Positions 1 through 28,425 are shown, counted from the stretch's first letter. The stretch is DNA of 38,781 nt from a virus (IMGVR_UViG_3300031857_000518:1-38781); one strand, 5' to 3'. Made by a program: numbers and translations. The notes: a model not told the origin generated them from the letters alone.

Positions 1-262
1 AAGGCTCTTATTTGTTATTGGTGTAAATCCGATAGCTGGCATAGATAACTCCTTATATGTTGATGTTCCCTTTAATCGGAACATTCGGTTGTTGTGAAAT
101 AATCTGCGTCTCTAATTGCGTTTGCTCGGTCTCTGCGGCTTTTTTAACTGCCGAAGCTTCTTTGTCTTTAGCAGAAGCTTGTAGGTAAGCAGCTTGAGGA
201 TCCGGTGGCCCTTCTTGCGCTGCTTTTGCGGCTTCCTCTTTCCGCGCCTTAAGCTTCTCAAT
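1..262. repeat. Terminal redundancy, left copy (circular/permuted genome)
   Basis: 1-127 is identical to 38520-38646; 128-262 aligns without gaps to 38647-38781 with about 25 substitutions. Confidence 0.95.
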
Positions 263-1957
263 CATCTTAGACTTACCAGCAACATTGGAGATTTCCAATA
301 GATCGGTAAGCTCGAAGGCGTTTTGAGCACCGTACTTCAATATCGCATCAAGCTGTTCTTGTGACGTATTCAGAGTGTCGTAAGATTCGTCTAGAATGAT
401 ATCCATATCCAACGTCGTCGGTTGGTTTTTGGTCATCACAACTTGCTTCAACATTTCTGGATTCGTTTGTTCCAATTGAATAAGCTGCGCGGAAGCTCCG
501 AGACGCATTTCGTACGGCTTAGAATCGTCGTCCATAATTTCTTGCAATTGATCTTGTAACGTAACCTGAACATTGAACCCAACCCAACGAAGTTTTTGCT
601 CATCATCAGTAACACGGATCCACTTTTCTTTGTCCCAAGATTGACGTATCCGGTTCCACATTTGACGATACACGCGAAGCTTGAAAGATCCAAAGTTTTC
701 AAACAACTTAATGATGTCAGTCATACCAGCTTGCTGCAATCTTTGCAATGCTATACCGCTGAGTTCTCCAAATTGCTTCGTATCTCCGTTCATCGGCGCG
801 GAGAAACTACCACTGTCCATTTCCATCTTGGCGTCTTGGTACAATTCAAGCTGACCTTGCGCCATATCGCCTGTTGGTAGAATACCAAAGTCCTTACCGA
901 ATTCTCCCTGACCAACTTCTAAATGTCCGTTTGGCTTCGCAAGTTCACGCTTAGATTTCGCAACGTCCTTCACCGCACCACGATTACCAAAAGTCTGGCG
1001 CTGCGATAATAGGAACAACGCTTTTGAGCGGCGATGATTGACTTCGTCTTGCGGGTCAAGGTATGCTTTCAATTCCCCGTAGCGATTATTCTCGCGGTCA
1101 ATGTAAGCGTGTTCAAATTCTAGAGGACATTCTGGAACGCCATACTCGTCAAGGTACGGAGATTCCATCGGTGGAAGTAGAAAGCCACCTTGCGTGTAAA
1201 TTGCTAGAAACCACTTTCCCTCGATCTTACGGTAATGTGTCAAAACTAAAAAGCGACGACGTTTGCCTTGACGATAATACCACTTCGGTCTGTCGTCAAA
1301 AGTTTCATCCGTATCTCCTGCGGTTACGGATAACGCATCTTCGTCCATAGTGTCTTTGAACGTGCGAATGACGTCAGCTTCTTCCATCCAAATACCAAAG
1401 CCTTTACCACCGGCATCGGAAAAATCATGCTTACGACTAAATGGATCGAAGAAAATACGATCCCAAGGAATATGATCTACGACAACGTCAGCTTCTCCGT
1501 TCGGAGCGGTCTCAATAACAATGTTCACTCCTGTGTACCCTTCACAGAAGAAATTGTCTGCACACTCTAAGAACGTTGGTTGTAATTTTGTTTTATCGGC
1601 CGCGAAGCGTAGCGCGTCGGTCACAGCTTCCGAGGCATCTCCGTCTTGGTCGACGTTACGCGGATACGCTTTCGGATCGCCCTTCCGAGCACTCACAAGT
1701 CCAAGCAATCCGTTCAACTTGTTCTTAATTTTATTGACCACGATGGGAGATTGCATCCGAGCTCTTAGAGCTCTGACTTGCTCAGCCGTCCACTGCTTTC
1801 CATCATAATAGTCGCGGCAACGCTCGGAGGTCATGCGAGCGTCTTGCGTGTTATCCAAAAATTCTATGACGGTCTCGCGCCAATCAGTATGATCCCCGTA
1901 GATGCTCGTTCCCTCAGCGGCGTCCTCGATTGGGTCGTCAGATTGGGATTGTTCCAT
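53..1957 (-). CDS. Portal protein, P22-like
   Basis: Follows terL; DYYDGKQW, PIVVNKI and DEVNHRRSK motifs, helical C-terminus. Start placed at MEQSQ (ATG 1957); the ORF is open to 2035. Confidence 0.88.
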   Translation of the reverse strand: MEQSQSDDPIEDAAEGTSIYGDHTDWRETVIEFLDNTQDARMTSERCRDYYDGKQWTAEQVRALRARMQSPIVVNKIKNKLNGLLGLVSARKGDPKAYPRNVDQDGDASEAVTDALRFAADKTKLQPTFLECADNFFCEGYTGVNIVIETAPNGEADVVVDHIPWDRIFFDPFSRKHDFSDAGGKGFGIWMEEADVIRTFKDTMDEDALSVTAGDTDETFDDRPKWYYRQGKRRRFLVLTHYRKIEGKWFLAIYTQGGFLLPPMESPYLDEYGVPECPLEFEHAYIDRENNRYGELKAYLDPQDEVNHRRSKALFLLSQRQTFGNRGAVKDVAKSKRELAKPNGHLEVGQGEFGKDFGILPTGDMAQGQLELYQDAKMEMDSGSFSAPMNGDTKQFGELSGIALQRLQQAGMTDIIKLFENFGSFKLRVYRQMWNRIRQSWDKEKWIRVTDDEQKLRWVGFNVQVTLQDQLQEIMDDDSKPYEMRLGASAQLIQLEQTNPEMLKQVVMTKNQPTTLDMDIILDESYDTLNTSQEQLDAILKYGAQNAFELTDLLEISNVAGKSKMIEKLKARKEEAAKAAQEGPPDPQAAYLQASAKDKEASAVKKAAETEQTQLETQIISQQPNVPIKGNINI

Positions 1958-3389
1958 TGTAATCTTCTTCATCGTCACCCGTTCCATAGCCATCGTTGGC
2001 TCTTGTTGGTTTTTCGTGGTAGGTCGAAGGTCCATACGCTTGATCTAGAAGCCTTCCAAATATCCCACACACGTCAACCTTGTCATCGCGTTTATCGTCT
2101 TTACCAGTAAATTTCAAAAGCTGAGTAATTAGATCGTCGCCCCAAGAACCGTAAGGAATATAAACTTTACCTTGAGAGCAAAGAGCTTGGAAGGCTTTGG
2201 CATTCGCCGCCTTACCTTTACTAGAATTAACCCACTCAAGTTTAAAGAACGCTCTTCTACGTTGCTGCTCTTTAAGGATAAATGGTTCCATAGCTCTTCG
2301 GATAATGCCGGATTCAGCAGCCCAGAACATTGGGTCGTGGTCTAAATAAAGCTGCATCATGGCGTCGATAGATTTATCTAAAGTGACTTGACCTTCCCAC
2401 CAATCTAAGATCCATAGATTTTCTTGAGTGTCAAATCCGCAAACACCTTGCTCAGTCCAGTCTCCGCTATCGGGCGTCACTGCGTAGTCACCGGCTGCAA
2501 ACTTTACGAGCTTCGTGGGTTCTTCGCCTAGTCTAAATCTTTTAAACCATTCTTTCTTAAAGAACGAACCCTCTTCGGGCGTAGGATCTTGCATATATTG
2601 AGCCATGAACGTTGCGCTATCTGCTAGTTTCATAGCCTTCAATTCCTCAAGGGTATGTTTGTATGGCCAGATAGACTTACCATCTTTGATCGCCGGAATG
2701 ATCACCTCGTGAAATTCTTCACCCATCCCTCCGTTTCTCACAAACCCTGACATGTCGTCTTCGTGAAGTCGCTGCATGACAATGATGATCGGAGTTGATC
2801 TAGAGTTCCGTCGCGATTTGATCGTCGTGTTAAGACGCTGATTTACCTTGGTACGTTCTTTTTCGTTCTCCGCATCGTCGACCTTTATCGGATCGTCAAT
2901 GACAATAGCACCGTAAAAAAGACCATCCTCCGGTTGTTCAAGTACACCTGCACCGAAGCCTGTGACTGGGCCACCCGCCGCCGTTGCATAAAGACCACCA
3001 CCCTGCTCTGTGTACCATTTCTTTTTACTGTCTGCATCGTCTTTGATCTTAACTGGCCAAAGTTCTTGGTACTCAGATGATCCTACAAGCTCACGACATT
3101 TCGCGGAGTTGTCGAGTGCAAGTTCGTCGGAGTAACTCAAGTGAATGAACTTCGCACGTGGGTTGTTCGCAATACACCGCGCCATCCAGTCAATAACAAC
3201 GAGCTGCGTTTTTCCGCTGCGTGGAAAGATATTGATCAGTAAGTTTTTGATCTCACCGCTTTCGACTTTACGAAGTGCATCTTCTAAGATTTGATGATGG
3301 TCGGCTGGTACAAAAACTTCGCCACGTTGCTTAAAGAAATGTTTAGTGAATTCAATCTGGGAGCTCTGTAATTTTTCCCTCAATAACAT
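1938..3389 (-). CDS. terL: Terminase large subunit
   Basis: Walker A PRSGKT, Walker B IVIDDP, motif VMQRLHEDD, nuclease DDKVD. Start uncertain (ORF open to 3476). Confidence 0.95.
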   Translation of the reverse strand: MLLREKLQSSQIEFTKHFFKQRGEVFVPADHHQILEDALRKVESGEIKNLLINIFPRSGKTQLVVIDWMARCIANNPRAKFIHLSYSDELALDNSAKCRELVGSSEYQELWPVKIKDDADSKKKWYTEQGGGLYATAAGGPVTGFGAGVLEQPEDGLFYGAIVIDDPIKVDDAENEKERTKVNQRLNTTIKSRRNSRSTPIIIVMQRLHEDDMSGFVRNGGMGEEFHEVIIPAIKDGKSIWPYKHTLEELKAMKLADSATFMAQYMQDPTPEEGSFFKKEWFKRFRLGEEPTKLVKFAAGDYAVTPDSGDWTEQGVCGFDTQENLWILDWWEGQVTLDKSIDAMMQLYLDHDPMFWAAESGIIRRAMEPFILKEQQRRRAFFKLEWVNSSKGKAANAKAFQALCSQGKVYIPYGSWGDDLITQLLKFTGKDDKRDDKVDVCGIFGRLLDQAYGPSTYHEKPTRANDGYGTGDDEEDYNGTIPI

Positions 3390-3777
3390 CTTGTCTACTA
3401 CGTGCGCCAATGGCTGCAAGTCCTGCGGCGAGGTCTCGCAGTTCTTCAGTAGAGAACTTACTGAGGAGCTTTTCAAGATTGACCTCCTGCGTCATATTGA
3501 TATTGAAATCTTTTGGCATGATACGAGCGGCAGCGCTGATGTAAGCGGCAACATCGTTTTCTCTACATCTTTTAAGAGCATCTGCACCATGTTCTTCCCA
3601 GTCAGCCATAAAGTCTTGAACAAACGCTTCTGCGAACTTGTTTCTTGAACCTTTAGGACGTCCAGGAGATTTAATCTCTCCGTTTATCATCCTTTGTTGC
3701 GAAGCTCTTTGCGCCGGTGAATAACCACGCTTATATTTAATTTTAGGTGTTGCGTTCTGCGTTTCTTGAGTTGTCAT
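3352..3777 (-). CDS. terS: Terminase small subunit
   Basis: GRPKGSRNK motif, 141 aa, directly upstream of and overlapping terL. Confidence 0.8.
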   Translation of the reverse strand: MTTQETQNATPKIKYKRGYSPAQRASQQRMINGEIKSPGRPKGSRNKFAEAFVQDFMADWEEHGADALKRCRENDVAAYISAAARIMPKDFNINMTQEVNLEKLLSKFSTEELRDLAAGLAAIGARSRQDVIEGKITELPD

Positions 3778-19498: not shown

Positions 19499-19514
19499 CG
19501 TGATGAGAAATAAA

Positions 19515-20294
19515 ATGCAAATATTTATACCGACCTATGGTCGTAGCGCTCAGCAACATACTTTCAGAAATCTTCCAAAATCTTTACAAAAGAAAACAAC
19601 GCTAGTTGTACAGAAACGCGAGGCGCATCTTTACGACAACTATCCAATATTAGTGCTACCGGCAAGCATCCAAACTATATCGCCTGCGCGCCAATATATT
19701 ATGAAAGTTGCCGAGACGTTCGGCCACAAGAAAGTTGTCATGCTCGACGACGATCTTAGATTTGACTGGCGTCGAATGGACGACGGAGGGAAGTTCCTCG
19801 TTGCTACGGATAAACAAGTAGAAGATCTTTTTAAAACTATCGAGAAGAAACTTGATAAGTATGCGCATGTCGGGGTACTATCTCGTGAAGGTGGAAATCG
19901 TATTCTTACCGAGACTGTAGAATGTACGCGAATGATGCGTGTTTTAGCCTATTGTGTTGAAACTTACCACAAAGAGAAAATAAAATTTGATAGACTACCC
20001 TTACAGGAGGATTTCGATGTCACACTGCAACTGCTCAAAAAAGGCTACCCAAACCTCGTGCTGTGCGGGTGGGTTAATGGTCAAGGTTCTTCCGGTGCGA
20101 AAGGCGGCTGCTCCCATTTCAGAACCATTGAGCTTCACAACGAGAATGCGAAGAAGCTTGCTGAATTTCATGCGCCGTTTGTTAAAGTCGTAGAGAAACA
20201 AACAAAAGGAGCTTGGGGTGGAAAGGCGCGTCTGGACGTCATGGTCCAGTGGAAGAAAGCTTACGAAAGCTCAAAGAAAAATGCGCGTAAATGA
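19515..20294 (+). CDS. GT-A glycosyltransferase, GREB1/TET-associated (TAGT)-like
   Basis: IFIPTYGRS, VMLDDDL (DxD), EDFDVTLQLLKKG, GGCS..RT. Confidence 0.85.
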   Translation: MQIFIPTYGRSAQQHTFRNLPKSLQKKTTLVVQKREAHLYDNYPILVLPASIQTISPARQYIMKVAETFGHKKVVMLDDDLRFDWRRMDDGGKFLVATDKQVEDLFKTIEKKLDKYAHVGVLSREGGNRILTETVECTRMMRVLAYCVETYHKEKIKFDRLPLQEDFDVTLQLLKKGYPNLVLCGWVNGQGSSGAKGGCSHFRTIELHNENAKKLAEFHAPFVKVVEKQTKGAWGGKARLDVMVQWKKAYESSKKNARK

Positions 20295-21120
20295 ATTATT
20301 CGATTTTATCCAAAAGCGTCACGACATATATATTATGCGCGAAAAAGGGTATCTTAAACCTTGGACCTCGGATCCTATTCTACAGCAATACAGGTTCTGT
20401 AACGTCTATAGAGAGCTGGATACTCAGACAATTTGGTTCGCTAACAACTGGCGCGTACCGAACGCTGAAGATCCAGACCTTTGGTTTGCTTCCCTCGTTT
20501 TTCGCTTTGTCAATTGGTCCGAGACCGCTGCGGAGCTAGGCTATCCCGTCCCATGGGATCCGCAACGCTTTAAAGCGGTGCTACAAGGTCGTAAAAGACG
20601 TAAATTGAAGGTTTACAGCGCCGCATATATGATATCGACCCACGGAGTTAAGGAAGAAAAATCAAGTTATCTTGCGAATTCTTTGTCTAAGATTTGGCAG
20701 TTCAAAGAGCAATTTAGATTTGAGAAAAACGACACGCTTTCTACAATGCATAGAAGACTGACTGGAGCTTTTGACGTTGGTTCGTTCCTTGCCGGTCAGG
20801 TTATCGCGGACGCTAAATATGCTGGTGATATACTGAAAGCTTCTGACTGGTGGACTTTTGCAGCTTCCGGACCAGGAAGTCGTCGAGGGTTGAACAGGGT
20901 GTGTAACGCACCTATAAACATACCTTGGAAAGAAGATGTTTGGTACGATACCCTGAGAACGCTAAAGAATCGCATAGATCCTATGTTCAAAAAAGCTAGA
21001 ATGCCTCAGCTTCATGCTCAAGATTTACAGAACTGCCTTTGCGAGTTTGATAAATACGAACGTGTAAGATTGGGTGAAGGTCGCCCGAAAGCAAAATATA
21101 ATGGAGTATCCTATGAATGA
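20281..21120 (+). CDS. 5-hmdU DNA kinase (aGPT-PPlase1 family)
   Basis: PWTSDPILQQYRFCNVYRELD, FLAGQVIAD, GPGSRRGL, QNCLCEFDKY. Confidence 0.9.
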   Translation: MRVNELFDFIQKRHDIYIMREKGYLKPWTSDPILQQYRFCNVYRELDTQTIWFANNWRVPNAEDPDLWFASLVFRFVNWSETAAELGYPVPWDPQRFKAVLQGRKRRKLKVYSAAYMISTHGVKEEKSSYLANSLSKIWQFKEQFRFEKNDTLSTMHRRLTGAFDVGSFLAGQVIADAKYAGDILKASDWWTFAASGPGSRRGLNRVCNAPINIPWKEDVWYDTLRTLKNRIDPMFKKARMPQLHAQDLQNCLCEFDKYERVRLGEGRPKAKYNGVSYE

Positions 21121-22147
21121 AATTAATGCCTGTAACGTAAACGACGCTGTCAACCTAGGCTTGAGCTACCTACTCGAACATGGTATCGAGGAAGATAGTC
21201 GCAACGGAAAAGTTCTCGTAGCTCCTGGACCTGTGATGACAATTTACAGCAACCCTAAAGAGCATGTTCTTTTCAGTCCGACCCGTGACGCTAATCCATT
21301 TTTCCACTTGATGGAAGCTCTTTGGATGCTCAACGGCGATAACGATCTAGCGTTCCCCATGATGTTCAACAAGCGATTTAAGGAGTACAGCGATGACGGT
21401 AGTCGTATATGGGGAGCTTACGGCTGGCGCTGGCGTAAGTTCTTTGGATCTGACCAAATTTCAAGGATCTGTGCCGAACTTTCTGACAATAAAAAGAGTC
21501 GCCGTTGTGTCCTCTCTATGTGGAACGGTATGCCGAATGACCATGACATGTGGGAAGGTCAAGACGATCTCTTTGTCGCCACAAATGGTGGACGGGACGT
21601 ACCGTGTAACACCCACGCATACTTCGACGTTCGTGGTGGCTTTCTCAACATGACCGTCTGCAACCGCTCCAACGACGCTATCTGGGGAGCTTACGGCGCG
21701 AACGCTGTTCATTTCTCAATCCTACAAGAATATATGGCCGAGAAAATTGGCGTTACAGTTGGCCTTTACAGACAGTTCAGCAATAACTTCCACGCTTATC
21801 TTGACGTGTATAGTCGCGAAAAGCTTGCCAAGATAGCTGCCGAGGGTCATAGATACGATCATTATTCCAAAGTTTTCGACACTGTACCGACGATACCGCT
21901 TGGTGCGAACAATATGTATTGGGATTCGGATCTTAGATCTTTTATCGCCGATCGTAAAGTTCAGTGGGAAAGTAAGAATTTCTTTTCTCAGGTCGCTGGG
22001 CCAATGTACGACGCTTGGCAGGAACATAAGGCTGGAGGTACTGAGAACGCTCTGATTCACATACGCTCAATGCCATTCTGCGACTGGCGCATCGCCTGTG
22101 AAGCTTGGTTACTTCGCCGTAGTAAAGGAGCTGACAATGCAGCGTAG
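21113..22147 (+). CDS. Thymidylate-synthase homologue, probable dUMP hydroxymethylase
   Basis: SRNG, RDANPFFHLMEALW, AYGWRWR, catalytic PCN, NRSND..WG...NAVHF (Asn is the dU-specific residue); adjacent to the hmdU kinase. Confidence 0.87.
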   Translation: MNEINACNVNDAVNLGLSYLLEHGIEEDSRNGKVLVAPGPVMTIYSNPKEHVLFSPTRDANPFFHLMEALWMLNGDNDLAFPMMFNKRFKEYSDDGSRIWGAYGWRWRKFFGSDQISRICAELSDNKKSRRCVLSMWNGMPNDHDMWEGQDDLFVATNGGRDVPCNTHAYFDVRGGFLNMTVCNRSNDAIWGAYGANAVHFSILQEYMAEKIGVTVGLYRQFSNNFHAYLDVYSREKLAKIAAEGHRYDHYSKVFDTVPTIPLGANNMYWDSDLRSFIADRKVQWESKNFFSQVAGPMYDAWQEHKAGGTENALIHIRSMPFCDWRIACEAWLLRRSKGADNAA

Positions 22148-24455: not shown

Positions 24456-25982
24456 CTATCTTTGATATTGGTAGTATAAGTTATCTACTCGAAGTGATCT
24501 TGCAGTAGTCCCTACTGTTTTTTCAATTTGTAGTACACATCGAGGGTGTATTGTGAGTGAAGATGCAATGTTCGTAGTAATAGTACCAACTAAGACATCA
24601 TCTATAAAGAACGTGACTGCTGTTTTTGCACGGTTAATTTCAATTCTCAATCTTTGCTGAACACCAGCCACAGGTGGGACTGTTGTATTGACTACAGTTT
24701 CAGTTCCAGCATTGTCAGAGACGCAAACCCAGTTTCCACTATTAATATCATCTTTATACGCAAACCCCAAGAAGCCGTTATCAGTTCTTGTAGTGTAACC
24801 AGTGTTAAGATACATAGTTAACCAAAAACGATTTGTACCATCTGACAAGGTTGGGATGTCAATAGTCGCTTCATGCCTCCTAAATTTATTTGAAGTTGTT
24901 AGATCATAGCAAGGCTCTACACTAAAAGCATTGATATATGCCCAGCCCGTAGCTGTTGTCCCAGTCTGTAAATTTACGATTCCTCGGTGTGGATCTGCTG
25001 CAGCAGTAGAAAGTGCAAGACCAGCACCGCTACCGGTGACTCCAGCTGAAACTTCATTAGTGGTATCATAGCGTCTAAATTGGTTCCAATATTCAGTAAA
25101 GTTAGATCTGGATATTTCAGGACTAATTGGACGCCAAATTGTCCATTTTGTGCCATCGTAAGTTCGTTGCCAAACGTCACCAGAAGCAGTTTCAGTCCAT
25201 TCTTGAATACGCGTTGCTAATGCTGTTGCAGCATAAATCCTTAAAATGCCCACAGTAGCTGAGTCATAAAGGGGGGCATTTATATAAGTAGTACCAGCTG
25301 TGATATAAGACCCAGTCGTCGTTAAAGTGTTCCAATCATCTGTAGCCCCAATCGTGGACGTAGCTGTAAAGCTGCTTGAAGTTGCACCAAGAAGAATAAA
25401 GCTTGTACCGTTATAGAACATAAACACTGGTACGTTTGCGGTAAGGTCTCCAGCAGCAATATTCACAAAAGTACCGTTACTATTTTTTGTGATGTTTTTA
25501 GTCGCCAAGCCACTGATCGCCAAGGTCGAGGCACCAGTATTTGAGTTCTGCGGAACAAGCGTGACAAGTTGGCCAAGAGCATAGGCGGTTATTGCGGGGT
25601 CTGGGGCAATAACATAAGCGTTTACACTGCCAGTGTCTGCGGCAAAGTTGATCAGACGCTCTGCGTTGGATCCCGTGGACACTTGAATGTTATCGTAATT
25701 CCAAACGGCTCCGCTATTGGCATCCGCAGCGGCTTGGGTAGGGTACAGCGCCAACTTACACTTCTTTTCAACGTGTGGAATAATTACCGAACCACCAGAA
25801 GACACGTAACCAGCGGCATTTAGAACAAAGCTCGTGGCCGTTGTAGCTCCGGTAAAATCCGTTGCCATTGGGATAACAGTGTTTGTTTGAGCGTCATAAG
25901 CCTTAAGTACAGCTCCCGAATAAGGGAGACCGCTAGAGTTTACGTATTGCCGAGGCATATATTCTAATGGGAACCAAGTCAT
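24456..25982 (-). CDS. Tail fibre/spike (receptor-binding protein)
   Basis: P22-like attachment N-terminus (QYVNSSGLPYSG); DTGSVNAY module; knob motif DWNTLTTTGSY...QEWT...WQRT...WTIW; beta-rich C-terminus. Confidence 0.85.
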   Translation of the reverse strand: MTWFPLEYMPRQYVNSSGLPYSGAVLKAYDAQTNTVIPMATDFTGATTATSFVLNAAGYVSSGGSVIIPHVEKKCKLALYPTQAAADANSGAVWNYDNIQVSTGSNAERLINFAADTGSVNAYVIAPDPAITAYALGQLVTLVPQNSNTGASTLAISGLATKNITKNSNGTFVNIAAGDLTANVPVFMFYNGTSFILLGATSSSFTATSTIGATDDWNTLTTTGSYITAGTTYINAPLYDSATVGILRIYAATALATRIQEWTETASGDVWQRTYDGTKWTIWRPISPEISRSNFTEYWNQFRRYDTTNEVSAGVTGSGAGLALSTAAADPHRGIVNLQTGTTATGWAYINAFSVEPCYDLTTSNKFRRHEATIDIPTLSDGTNRFWLTMYLNTGYTTRTDNGFLGFAYKDDINSGNWVCVSDNAGTETVVNTTVPPVAGVQQRLRIEINRAKTAVTFFIDDVLVGTITTNIASSLTIHPRCVLQIEKTVGTTARSLRVDNLYYQYQR

Positions 25983-26419
25983 TTATTTTTCTCCTTGATA
26001 ATTTTTAGCTGTTCTTTACGCAAATTTACGAGAGAGTCGTCACCTTTACCCTCAACGACATTTCTATAGACAAGCCCATCGTACCCATTTTTCTCAAGGG
26101 CATCTCTCAATAACTCAAAGCCTGCACTATTACTCCGCATCCCTTTTACGATATTCTCATATTGTTCGTTCGTAATACCTTTGGCTCTTCGAGCTGCAGC
26201 AGCAAGTTCAATGGCACCTTCCAATCCCCCGTCATCTTCAATTCGTAGCGGATTTTTAATGTTATACTCGATCGTGTACAATTGACCTTTACCATCCTTA
26301 TATTTCGCACCCAAGCGTTCAGACGCTGACTTTTTAGTCCCGATATGTGTGAAAGACTTAAATTCACCTATATCTTTCGCCCCGCCATGGTAAGCAAGAA
26401 GCTGATCACCTATCGTGGC
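25979..26419 (-). CDS. ADP-ribosyltransferase-like (ART-PolyVal-type) domain, predicted -1 frameshift extension of the ejection protein
   Basis: Frame is open upstream of the track's TTG 26314: ATIGDQLLAYHGG..F..THIGT..SA..R...LY..E..IKNPL...GYDGLVYRN..EG..DS; no ATG/GTG/TTG before YHG; stop overlaps the tail-fibre ATG. Confidence 0.72.
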   Translation of the reverse strand, partial: ATIGDQLLAYHGGAKDIGEFKSFTHIGTKKSASERLGAKYKDGKGQLYTIEYNIKNPLRIEDDGGLEGAIELAAAARRAKGITNEQYENIVKGMRSNSAGFELLRDALEKNGYDGLVYRNVVEGKGDDSLVNLRKEQLKIIKEKNK

Positions 26420-28425
26420 TTTGGGCGAGGCTGTGTTTCGCGACCTCCGTAGTTCTTGATTTCTTTAGCCAAATCTCTTGCTTGTGCGTTGGTTAATCCG
26501 AAAGTTTTCGCACGCTCGATAAACTTATTCTGCGAAATTTCACCATCAACAAGTTTCTTGCGAAGATTGTTAAACTCTTGAGCCTTAATTCCAACAAGAG
26601 AATTTTCAAGCTTCATTACTTGGCTTGGCGGTGTCTTTGTAGCTGCGCCGCTTAAATCTGCGCCCTCTGCAGGTTGCTTGTTCATCAGACGTTGAGCGAT
26701 GTTGGTCTGTTGCTCTGTCATAGGTAGTGCAGACATTTTATCGGGAGCCGCTAATTTCAAAGGCGCTGTTTTGTCGATAACACCTTCAGACGGAAGCGTT
26801 CTCTGTAGGTTTAACTTGCGCTGAGCTTGCTTGATCTGCGTATCTGTCATTGGCGGCAGAGCTATTTTATCGGGAGCCGCAAGACGTAGCTGCTCTGGAT
26901 ATTCAGGCTTAGGAATATCGACATCCCGCAACTTTGACATCAAATCTTTACCCAAAGCCTCTTGAACTTTGACGCCACGCTTAGCTATAGCGGCGGCATT
27001 GGCACTACGCGCAGCCATACCAGCTACCTGAGCCCCAGCTGCCGCAGGTATGTTTCCAGTGGAACCAAGCACGATAGCCGTAAGTCTGCTAGTTAATGGG
27101 CCAAGCAATTCAGCGGTCATTCCTGGAGTAGCTGCTTTTTTCAAAAGTTCTTTGGCTTCAGATGGCCAACCTTTTAGATTTCCATTTTCAATGTCCATAT
27201 ACAGTTTTTTGTAGCCGTTCTGATACGCGGCTTCTGGATTTTTCGAAAGGCTTGCCCGCAAGGCGACCTCTTCCAATTCCTTGACGCGCATCTTTGCAGC
27301 CCAAATGTTACGACCATTAACCAATGCATCATTTCCGGCAGTATCAACTTCGTCAACAATCTGACGCAATTTTCTTTGAATTTTCTGTAATTCAAGACCG
27401 TTAGCTGTTACGCTTCCGGTTTCTGGATTTACAAAAGCTGGAGAGTTAATTTTAGCAGAAAGATTTCTGTCGATGTTTTCAATGTCTTCTAAAGTCATAT
27501 TCTTACCAGAGTTACCGCTGAACTCATCTAAAGCGTTTATAAGTTGATTTTGTTCTGCAGTGTATTTGCCGCTTGGCAAGGGCTTTGGTAGAGCTTGTTT
27601 AATCGAGCTGTCTAGTTTATCGCCAACTTGCTTAGCGTCAAACTTAGCACCAAGATACCCAGCTGTGTCGTAGTTTTGACCAGCCATCTTATCTAGTTCT
27701 TCAGTACCCAACAATTTTGGTTTTTGTGGTTTTGGAACCATGCTTTTTGTAAGCGCAGCATCTGAGGAAGCGTTCACTGTGTTTCTTAGGAGCTTTGTAC
27801 CCGCAGCCAAGCCTGTCGTTGTCCCCACAAGGTTAGCGGCTTGACCAGCTGCCTTTATATTTCTTGCGGCGCGTGGATATTGCTTGCTAAACAAGTCAAT
27901 GCTTTCTGGGATACCTTCACTTAAAGTTTTCCCAGTACCATCTGGAAGCTGACCAACAAAGTTAACAGCAGCTCCGATACCTTCTTTAACAAACTCAGGC
28001 GTGACTGTGCTAATTGCCTCAGCCACAGGATCCACAAATAGCTGTGAAGCCGTTGCCATAGTACCTTGGTATAAAGTTTCAGGCTTTGTCTGTTGTCCAG
28101 AAGCTCCCGCTTGACGAATGCCCTGAATTTCCTGTTCACGTCTAGCATAGTTTTCTTTTAAGCGGTCAGTAAAGCCTCCGGCCTCGACAAGTCTAGCACG
28201 GCTTCGCCAGTCCGAACCTTGCGTCGGTTGCTGCTGTACGGGTCTAGCTCTGGAACGCCAATCAGATGTTGACGCTGGTTGCGGCGCGGTTGTTGGCTTC
28301 GCAGGAGGTAGCGTTTGATATTGATTAACACCCTGACCTGAGGCTCTTTGTGCAAGAATAGCCTGTCGGCTTTCTTCCATTGGATCCATTGGGACAGGTC
28401 GAGATCTATTTCGCCAATCACTCAT
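26410..28425 (-). CDS. Large internal virion/ejection protein (P22 gp16 position)
   Basis: Third of three Ala/Gly/Gln-rich helical genes between tail hub and tail fibre; internal repeats. Confidence 0.75.
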   Translation of the reverse strand: MSDWRNRSRPVPMDPMEESRQAILAQRASGQGVNQYQTLPPAKPTTAPQPASTSDWRSRARPVQQQPTQGSDWRSRARLVEAGGFTDRLKENYARREQEIQGIRQAGASGQQTKPETLYQGTMATASQLFVDPVAEAISTVTPEFVKEGIGAAVNFVGQLPDGTGKTLSEGIPESIDLFSKQYPRAARNIKAAGQAANLVGTTTGLAAGTKLLRNTVNASSDAALTKSMVPKPQKPKLLGTEELDKMAGQNYDTAGYLGAKFDAKQVGDKLDSSIKQALPKPLPSGKYTAEQNQLINALDEFSGNSGKNMTLEDIENIDRNLSAKINSPAFVNPETGSVTANGLELQKIQRKLRQIVDEVDTAGNDALVNGRNIWAAKMRVKELEEVALRASLSKNPEAAYQNGYKKLYMDIENGNLKGWPSEAKELLKKAATPGMTAELLGPLTSRLTAIVLGSTGNIPAAAGAQVAGMAARSANAAAIAKRGVKVQEALGKDLMSKLRDVDIPKPEYPEQLRLAAPDKIALPPMTDTQIKQAQRKLNLQRTLPSEGVIDKTAPLKLAAPDKMSALPMTEQQTNIAQRLMNKQPAEGADLSGAATKTPPSQVMKLENSLVGIKAQEFNNLRKKLVDGEISQNKFIERAKTFGLTNAQARDLAKEIKNYGGRETQPRPKPR
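26419..26425 (-). other. -1 ribosomal frameshift slippery heptamer C CCA AAG
   Basis: X XXY YYZ correctly phased in the 671-aa ORF, two sense codons before its TAG; the -1 frame is the ART frame. Confidence 0.7.

What the first reader, a model, noticed from the sequence alone, without database searches (positions are those of the whole stretch)
25979..26470. Predicted -1 frameshift that adds an ADP-ribosyltransferase-like domain to an ejection protein
Seen: the 671-aa ejection ORF ends CGC CCA AAG CCA CGA TAG, placing a phased X XXY YYZ heptamer (C CCA AAG, 26425-26419) just before the stop. The -1 frame opens only about 15 codons earlier, has no ATG/GTG/TTG until 26314, and continues 146 codons (ATIGDQLLAYHGG...THIGT...IKNPL...GYDGLVYRN..EG..DS). 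Its stop overlaps the tail-fibre ATG. An imperfect hairpin (GGTG.AGC/GCT.TACC) starts 8 nt downstream and a GGAGG lies 18 nt upstream, farther than the usual stimulatory spacing. Known: A AAG heptamers are shift-prone in bacteria; YHG...NPL...GYDG is the pattern of ART domains in phage polyvalent proteins; T4 Alt is an injected ART. Inference: the virion carries both a 671-aa form and a minority ~815-aa form, which would ration an injected host-takeover or anti-defence enzyme. Phage frameshifts are mostly known for tail chaperones and capsid/tail extensions; I do not know of one dosing an enzymatic effector on an ejection protein. The catalytic Glu is not obvious by eye.
Basis: partly seen in the sequence, partly recalled or inferred. 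Interest (0 to 1): 0.87.

Follow-up and report, generated by a model that had tools for sequence, protein, structure and literature searches.

The report
Frameshift-armed phage ejection protein
In this phage, a stretch encoding an ADP-ribosyltransferase-family domain lies one base out of frame behind a likely DNA-ejection gene, at a sequence known to make E. coli ribosomes slip, so a small share of the ejection proteins would likely carry the enzyme into the host, whereas the relatives found carry such a tip in frame or lack it.

Summary
The 671-aa gene ends CCA AAG CCA CGA TAG; a -1 shift at C_CCA_AAG (26425-26419) would add 146 residues (815 aa). The added frame is an ART-PolyVal domain (Pfam cut-off just met, AlphaFold pLDDT 91, ART fold, 16 of 18 conserved columns kept). 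It is no assembly error: contigs from five runs bridge the site unchanged. The family swaps its C-terminal tip: relatives carry an ART in frame, other tips, or none, and a sister strain in the same samples lacks the cassette. For a frameshift: the site is the best E. coli heptamer plus the best 3' dinucleotide, unique among 46,852 codons and expected in about 1-2% of accidental breaks; the frame has no usable start. Against: no significant downstream structure, the SD-like motif is too far away, and no independent relative shares the layout. Best reading (0.6): low-level -1 frameshifting doses an injected ART, perhaps to only a minority of virions. Main rival (0.25): a silent out-of-frame cassette. 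The parts are known (frameshift-added Ig domains, virion ARTs); their combination was not found in print in five searches. New variant of a known kind.

The parts
26410..28425 (-). 671-aa likely ejection (internal virion) protein gene, last of three after the head-closure gene and before the tail fibre
   Evidence: ORF; neighbours: P22-like portal, head closure Hc3, phrog_598 DNA ejection; 3 of 14 family members carry an SLT lytic transglycosylase; Atlas rank 6 is a P22 gp16-domain cluster, score 0.94, family on 40% of members. No direct Pfam, PHROG or Foldseek hit.
26419..26425 (-). Slippery heptamer C_CCA_AAG, in phase (codons 668-669)
   Evidence: most efficient heptamer tested in E. coli (PMC4066793)
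26417..26418 (-). CC dinucleotide directly 3' of the heptamer
   Evidence: the most shift-prone 3' dinucleotide in an E. coli A_AAA_AAG test according to PMC5009743
26410..26412 (-). 0-frame stop TAG, two codons after the heptamer
25979..26464 (-). -1 frame, stop to stop (161 aa); 146 codons lie after the shift site; encodes an ART-PolyVal domain (His at 26389, His 26347, Glu 26053, Asp-Ser 26038-26033)
   Evidence: PF18760 E 3.8e-7, 31.4 bits against cut-off 31.2; 610 relatives at E<=0.001; conservation; model and fold searches; positions
25985..26608 (-). Exchanged block: last 66 codons of the ejection gene plus the ART frame; replaced by 172 other bases in a sister strain
   Evidence: joint 25984-26609 in X7 and X8; sister proteins P0166 and P0168 diverge at this point and end without a tip
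26443..26448 (-). SD-like GGAGGT, 17-18 nt before the heptamer; role doubtful
   Evidence: -10 kcal/mol pairing to an anti-SD motif; 2 such hexamers in 14,889 nt of the late strand; outside the 9-14 nt range for -1 stimulation
26389..26410 (-).
26411..26416 (-). Near-cognate codons ACG (26416-26414) and ATA (26413-26411) in the -1 frame, overlapping the end of the 0 frame; candidates for the rival re-initiation model
   Evidence: no SD in front of either
24456..25982 (-). 508-aa tail-fibre-like gene whose ATG overlaps the ART stop (ATGA)
   Evidence: strong SD, -8.5 kcal/mol; conserved N-terminus in 21 viral loci and 2 genome loci

Best explanation
The stretch encodes an ADP-ribosyltransferase-family domain that lies in the -1 frame behind a likely ejection-protein gene, and ribosomes likely slip back one base at C_CCA_AAG often enough to make a minority 815-aa fusion, which would be packaged and injected with the normal 671-aa form. 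Shown: the sequence layout, the ART family and predicted fold, the absence of an assembly error, and that the family exchanges its C-terminal tip (ART in frame, other domains, or none). Inferred: the cassette arrived by recombination as a block, sat out of frame, and is kept because tRNA-Pro and tRNA-Lys re-pair from CCA-AAG to CCC-AAA; 669 residues of the 0 frame then continue into 146 residues of the -1 frame and stop at the same ATGA overlap with the fibre gene at which the tip-less sister allele stops. With no clear stimulator the rate is probably low (0.3-4% by E. coli figures), so with 12-30 copies per virion, a P22 figure, only about 4-68% of virions would carry one enzyme. An enzyme can act at such doses. 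Its likely job is to ADP-ribosylate a host protein at entry (takeover or anti-defence); target and host are unknown.
For: (1) Site quality: C_CCA_AAG gave the highest shifting of 64 heptamers in E. coli, 54% with the IS3 pseudoknot, and CC is the most shift-prone 3' dinucleotide. (2) Rarity: simulated single-base losses in 108 genes of the window and 20 related loci left a V_VVA_AAG in the overlap in 1.4-2.8% of cases (0.5-1.6% for overlaps of at most 20 codons, as here), with CC in at most 0.2%; weighting to A-runs did not remove this (window alone). (3) The shift falls in the linker, after the conserved helical domain and just before ART homology starts, so both products keep whole domains. 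(4) Fusion is the natural state: P0003/P0173 carry PF18760 in frame and L019 carries a homologous tip in frame; 69 of 80 viral loci with this ART subfamily have it inside long ORFs. (5) No usable start: ACG, ATA and TTG 26314 lack an SD, while 18 of 20 annotated starts tested pair at -2 kcal/mol or better; the TTG product would lack both conserved His. (6) The domain looks intact: 16 of 18 columns conserved in at least 85% of 90 relatives are kept, pLDDT 90.9. (7) The allele is unchanged in runs dated 2017, 2019 and 2024, and the truncated 111-aa call stands on 9 plus 18 contigs. (8) Precedent: Ig-like domains reach phage structural proteins in frame or by frameshift (PMC5009743).
Against: No independent conservation: 0 of 21 other loci with this fibre N-terminus and 0 of 78 other ART loci show the layout; only near-identical copies do. 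The test is weak, since only four same-family loci with DNA at the gene end were found (L013, L014, L019, L024). No significant 3' structure: 1 of 5 windows reached z -2.3, 1 of 28 reached z -2.1, and the 80-nt folds rank at the 19th-51st percentile of the late region; possible pseudoknots are G-U rich. The SD-like motif is 17-18 nt away, outside 9-14 nt. Without stimulators the heptamer gives about 0.3%. The cassette shows no variation, so selection on it cannot be measured. Two nearly invariant positions differ (Phe to Ile beside the second His, Leu to Tyr), and activity is untested. The host is unknown; the figures are from E. coli.
Confidence: 0.6

Rival explanations
1. Silent cassette: the ART tip was once in frame (or was inserted out of frame) and a fixed one-base offset switched it off recently; only the 671-aa protein matters, and any slip at the heptamer is incidental.
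For: Tips are gained, swapped and lost often in this family; a sister strain thrives without it (depth 25-28 against about 67 in X7 and X8); in-frame fusion is the norm; no stimulator and no conservation; loss of one A from an A4 run would itself create the heptamer; an intact frame is expected if the break is young.
Against: Accidental breaks leave a V_VVA_AAG in the overlap only 0.5-2.8% of the time, even when restricted to A-runs, and with CC at most 0.2%; the allele is stable over 2017-2024 and is the deeper of the two in X7.
Confidence: 0.25
3. Transcriptional slippage or a rare in-frame DNA subpopulation (phase variation) supplies the fusion.
For: Short C and A runs at the site; contigs drop rare variants, so these cannot be excluded.
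Against: The runs are only three bases long, shorter than usual slippage tracts (recalled knowledge); no indel variant in 8 runs and no long member among 8 members of the 90% cluster.
Confidence: 0.04
4. Assembly or sequencing error splitting one 815-aa gene.
For: In-frame fusions exist in relatives.
Against: Identical sequence over 25900-26700 in four other database contigs and in bridging contigs of five runs; 27 contigs give the truncated ORF.
Confidence: 0.01

Closest known systems
Frameshift-added C-terminal domains on phage structural proteins (T3/T7 gp10B, Lactobacillus A2 head and tail, Listeria A118/A500/PSA; PMC5009743, passages read)
   Same: A mobile C-terminal domain sits in frame in some phages and behind a shift site in others; both forms are made from one gene.
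   Different: Those extensions are mostly Ig-like surface domains on capsid or tail; here the domain is a predicted enzyme on an internal, injected protein, and the shift is not demonstrated.
Polyvalent proteins and their ART domain, Pfam PF18760 (Iyer et al. 2017, PMC5512222; section 9 and passages read)
   Same: Same domain family, late-gene virion context, proposed injection and host-protein modification.
   Different: Described members are in-frame multidomain proteins with an H-Y-D site; the word frameshift does not occur in that paper's main text. Here one ART, out of frame, with His in place of Tyr.
T4 Alt (as described in PMC5512222)
   Same: An ART packaged in the head and injected with the DNA.
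   Different: Alt is an R-S-E clade enzyme from its own gene; this is an H-type domain on an ejection protein.
MuF-VIP2 ART fusions of Microbacterium phages (PMC7302621) and PRFect's remark on them (PMC10885494)
   Same: ART tip present in one phage and absent in its relative on a virion protein; PRFect lists VIP2 and MuF-like genes among predicted frameshift pairs and raises the same idea.
   Different: MuF minor head protein of siphoviruses, VIP2 clade, a one-sentence prediction without a site or test; here a podovirus ejection protein with a defined heptamer.
AcrIF11 (PDB 6KYF; 10.1101/2024.08.26.609590, abstract and outline seen)
   Same: Second Foldseek hit (E 4.1e-4); a phage ART that disables a defence system sub-stoichiometrically, a model for how few copies could act.
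   Different: 15% identity, stand-alone gene, not virion-borne; a shared fold does not show a shared target.

Membership tests
ART-PolyVal (PF18760) | Profile score above Pfam's gathering cut-off | tested here: met
   31.4 bits against 31.2, E 3.8e-7, profile positions 4-137 of 140; marginal, but 8 of 9 top relatives scanned pass the cut-off clearly
ART-PolyVal (PF18760) | ART fold | tested here: met
   Model pLDDT 90.9; leading Foldseek and VIA rows are ART-fold proteins: 9K3A_B Z 8.4, ParT 7.2, PARPs, AcrIF11; the Z values are middling
ART-PolyVal (PF18760) | His in strand 1 | tested here: met
   His at 26389, 98% of 90 relatives
ART-PolyVal (PF18760) | Tyr in strand 2 and Asp in strand 5 (H-Y-D of Iyer et al.) | tested here: inconclusive
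   Strand 2 reads His-Ile-Gly (His in 96% of 90 relatives); strand 5 starts Asp-Ser (Asp 51%, Ser 98%); an invariant Glu lies in the preceding loop. A His-His subclade; residue equivalence was not checked in three dimensions
ART-PolyVal (PF18760) | NAD+-dependent transfer activity | not testable with these tools
   needs an assay
Programmed -1 ribosomal frameshift | In-phase X_XXY_YYZ site inside the overlap of two frames offset by -1 | tested here: met
   the only such heptamer in the 17-codon overlap
Programmed -1 ribosomal frameshift | 3' stimulatory stem-loop or pseudoknot (usual, not obligatory) | tested here: inconclusive
   No fold clearly beyond shuffles or genome background; long-range or protein-aided stimulators not tested
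Programmed -1 ribosomal frameshift | SD-like motif 9-14 nt upstream (usual in bacteria, not obligatory) | tested here: not met
   GGAGGT at 17-18 nt
Programmed -1 ribosomal frameshift | Site and offset conserved in diverged relatives | tested here: inconclusive
   No independent example in 21 + 78 loci, but no relative carries this same cassette at intermediate distance
Programmed -1 ribosomal frameshift | Transframe product detected | not testable with these tools
   needs reporter, proteomics or profiling
Podovirus ejection proteins (P22 gp7/gp20/gp16 type) | Position among three genes between head closure and tail fibre | tested here: met
Podovirus ejection proteins (P22 gp7/gp20/gp16 type) | Sequence or structural homology to a characterised ejection protein | tested here: inconclusive
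   Atlas lead to PF26808; no Pfam/PHROG hit, low-confidence model, no Foldseek hit
Polyvalent proteins (Iyer et al. 2017) | Several disparate conflict domains in one polypeptide, delivered with the DNA | tested here: inconclusive
   Predicted fusion has one effector domain; relatives add SLT or other tips; delivery not testable

The most novel reading that the evidence does not exclude
Podophage ejection proteins act as polymorphic effector carriers with an exchangeable enzymatic tip, and this lineage has put its tip behind a -1 frameshift so that only a fraction of otherwise identical virions inject an ADP-ribosyltransferase: recoding used as bet-hedging for an anti-host weapon, possibly by capture of a once separately translated gene.
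Probability: 0.3. Interest if true: 0.85.

Novelty: new variant of a known kind. Interest (0 to 1): 0.6.

Why it matters
If true, it extends phage frameshifting from tail chaperones and surface decorations to dosing an injected enzyme, and predicts virion-to-virion differences in armament from one genome. It also shows that gene callers hide such effectors: databases hold only a 111-aa fragment lacking both conserved His. Independently of the frameshift, the family's swappable tips (ARTs of at least two origins, a second ART-like type, an unnamed 300-aa domain) are a set of candidate entry-stage anti-host factors.

Tried and rejected
No RNA holder listed; nothing follows on expression. A suspected fork in X1 at 26387-26415 is only a 29-base overlap of two contigs and was dropped. 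Searches for the ART frame among proteins of similar length found only this phage's fragment. INPHARED holds no relative of the 671-aa protein and two distant ART hits. A viral scan with P0003 found nothing; L015 was a false hit. The AlphaFold model of the 671-aa protein was poor (pLDDT 59.9) and matched nothing. No sequence hit for the ART profile in the PDB. No tRNA gene in the window and no minus-strand promoter-like site near the ART. The argument that ACG marks a lost start was weakened; start positions for ACG and ATA were one base off and were redone with the same result. The ART tree did not resolve this domain's neighbours. Look-ups in earlier findings by sequence, place and words gave nothing, except one word hit. 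Literature searches for the combination returned no report of a frameshift adding an enzyme to an ejection protein; the library lacks most subscription papers. Supplements were not read; Supplementary tables of PMC4066793 and the SI of PMC12002296 may bear on the rates and on the A4 domain. No complex prediction was run, since no binding is claimed.
Full report
Setting. The window is a virus record of 38,781 bases, 78% complete by CheckV: a podophage-like genome with a P22-like portal, terminase, major capsid, head closure Hc3 and three genes (315, 388, 671 aa) before a fibre gene. The 315-aa gene matches phrog_598 'DNA ejection'. The 671-aa protein has no Pfam or PHROG hit; its assignment as an ejection protein rests on position, on SLT domains in 3 of 14 family members and on an Atlas lead to P22 gp16. 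Runs holding it are labelled freshwater, lake water and fungus metagenomes, 2017-2024. The host is unknown.

The observation. Codons 668-672 read CCA AAG CCA CGA TAG; the -1 frame opens at 26464 and runs 146 codons past the shift to a TGA overlapping the fibre ATG, giving a predicted 815-aa product.

Not an error. Of 8 runs laid, none lists an indel; contigs of X7, X13, X14, X1 and X2 bridge the heptamer with no difference (X1 and X2 may be the source); X12 covers it on a short side; X8 and X15 do not cover it. Four other database contigs (two IMG/VR, two metagenome records, which may share samples) are identical over 25900-26700. The truncated 111-aa ORF is on 9 plus 18 contigs, and none of 8 members of the 90% cluster is long.

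The added domain. It scores just above the cut-off of PF18760 ART-PolyVal and has 610 relatives, many in proteins of thousands of residues. In an alignment of 90 full-domain relatives out of 149 hits, it keeps 16 of 18 columns conserved at 85% or more, including both His, Asp, the GYDG-Y-N-E motif and Ser; it differs at Phe/Ile and Leu/Tyr. These relatives were picked by likeness to the query. The model is confident (pLDDT 90.9) and its best matches are ART folds: a chain of the cyanophage A4 pre-ejectosome (E 3.2e-5; Z 8.4, rmsd 4.2, 124 aligned), AcrIF11, ParT, MbcT, PARPs. The canonical site of the family is H-Y-D; this subclade has His for Tyr and an invariant loop Glu. Activity is inferred, not shown.

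A swappable tip. Thirteen relatives of the 671-aa protein share the core at 34-53% identity. Four end right after the last helical domain; P0003 continues in frame into PF18760; P0008, P0009, P0010 and P0012 have other tips. L019 carries an in-frame tip homologous to P0003's ART (31%, pairwise E 1e-11), though Pfam does not call it. L019, P0010 and P0174 share cores at 78-93% yet have three different tips; P0010's is ART-like by an Atlas lead only. On a tree of 18 cores, ART-like tips need 4 changes, at least 3 forced by well-supported branches. The window's ART is only 28% identical to P0003's, so it was acquired separately. In X7 and X8 a sister strain replaces 25985-26608 by 172 bases; this keeps the frame and ends at the same ATGA overlap, matching proteins P0166 and P0168. 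So the window's allele is core plus a block that is offset by -1.

Programmed or broken? For programmed: C_CCA_AAG was the best of 64 heptamers in E. coli, 54% with a pseudoknot, about 0.3% alone and up to 3.7% with the best 3' context (PMC4066793, passages); the next two bases are CC, the most shift-prone dinucleotide (PMC5009743, passages). Such a site is unique among 46,852 codons. Because losing a base from a run could itself create a heptamer, I simulated 121,837 single-base losses: V_VVA_AAG appeared in the overlap in 1.4-2.8% (0.5-1.6% for short overlaps), any heptamer in 14-18% (6-9%), V_VVA_AAG plus CC in at most 0.2%. The frame has no start with an SD. Against: no convincing 3' structure, an SD-like motif beyond the working range, and no second example. 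Among 21 other loci found through the fibre N-terminus (L020 and L023 left out as repeats of L021 and L024) none has an out-of-frame tip; only 4 of them match the core profile. Among the best 80 of 225 viral ART loci, 69 are in long ORFs, 9 have their own start, and the 2 without a start are this phage. The cassette has no variants, so selection cannot be read. Weighing a likelihood ratio of some tens against a prior that favours broken cassettes (my judgement), I put functional frameshifting at 0.6, a silent cassette at 0.25 and re-initiation at 0.1.

Mechanism. Inferred: tandem re-pairing of tRNA-Pro and tRNA-Lys from CCA-AAG to CCC-AAA yields a minority fusion; the shared N-terminal part directs it into the head; ejection delivers the ART. 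P22 injects about 12, 12 and 30 copies of its three ejection proteins (PMC8402733, start of abstract in the listing). With those numbers, 0.3% shifting arms 4-9% of virions, 3.7% arms 36-68%, 10% arms 72-96%. Whether the C-terminus of this protein reaches the cytoplasm, where NAD+ is, is unknown.

Against what is known. Frameshift-added C-terminal domains on phage structural proteins are established, and the review states the same in-frame/out-of-frame logic for Ig-like domains. Virion ARTs are established (Alt, polyvalent proteins, MuF-VIP2), and PRFect mentions VIP2 and MuF-like genes as possible frameshift pairs. Five searches found no report of a frameshift adding an enzyme to an ejection protein. 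It works like T3 gp10B or A2 extensions in decoding and like Alt or polyvalent ARTs in presumed function. It is a member of PF18760 by score and fold; membership among programmed frameshifts is unproven.

Verdict. Real feature, ART confirmed, frameshift likely but resting on one lineage. New variant of a known kind; interest 0.6.

Noticed in passing
PDB 9K3A chain B (fold-search hit): An ejection-protein chain of cyanophage A4 is the best structural match to this ART, yet the paper's main text never mentions ADP-ribosylation (PMC12002296; SI not seen). By residue range the chain is probably gp27. It may hold an unreported ART-like domain inside a solved pre-ejectosome.
   Followed up: partly
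P0009 residues ~620-891 and P0174 residues ~720-1014: Two relatives carry a similar-looking C-terminal domain of about 300 aa with no Pfam hit; several in-frame tips start with a short K-D-E-S/G-G-S linker motif.
   Followed up: no
window 19500-22147 (+): DNA-modification cluster: TET-associated glycosyltransferase, 5-hmdU DNA kinase helical domain, thymidylate-synthase-like gene, suggesting hypermodified bases.
   Followed up: no
window 53-2035 (codon 273) and 3352-3777 (codon 134 of 141): Other in-phase shift-prone heptamers: G_GGA_AAG in the portal gene (-1 frame open 23 codons) and G_GGA_AAA near the end of the 141-aa gene (open 31 codons).
   Followed up: no
L028 about 2710 against L029: Near-identical loci in which the last ejection gene is whole (638 aa) in one and split by an in-frame stop in the other.
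   Followed up: no
L030 3303-3935: A separate 211-codon frame without Pfam hit is inserted between the last ejection gene and the fibre gene, the same slot as the ART cassette.
   Followed up: no
window 26692-26914, 27034-27073, 25597-25926: Patches of variant sequence in X1, X2, X7, X12, X14 show co-occurring strains and recombination around, but not inside, the cassette.
   Followed up: partly
L041: A distant locus with the same fibre N-terminus lies on a 35.9-kb contig binned as Pseudobdellovibrionaceae; too distant to name a host.
   Followed up: no
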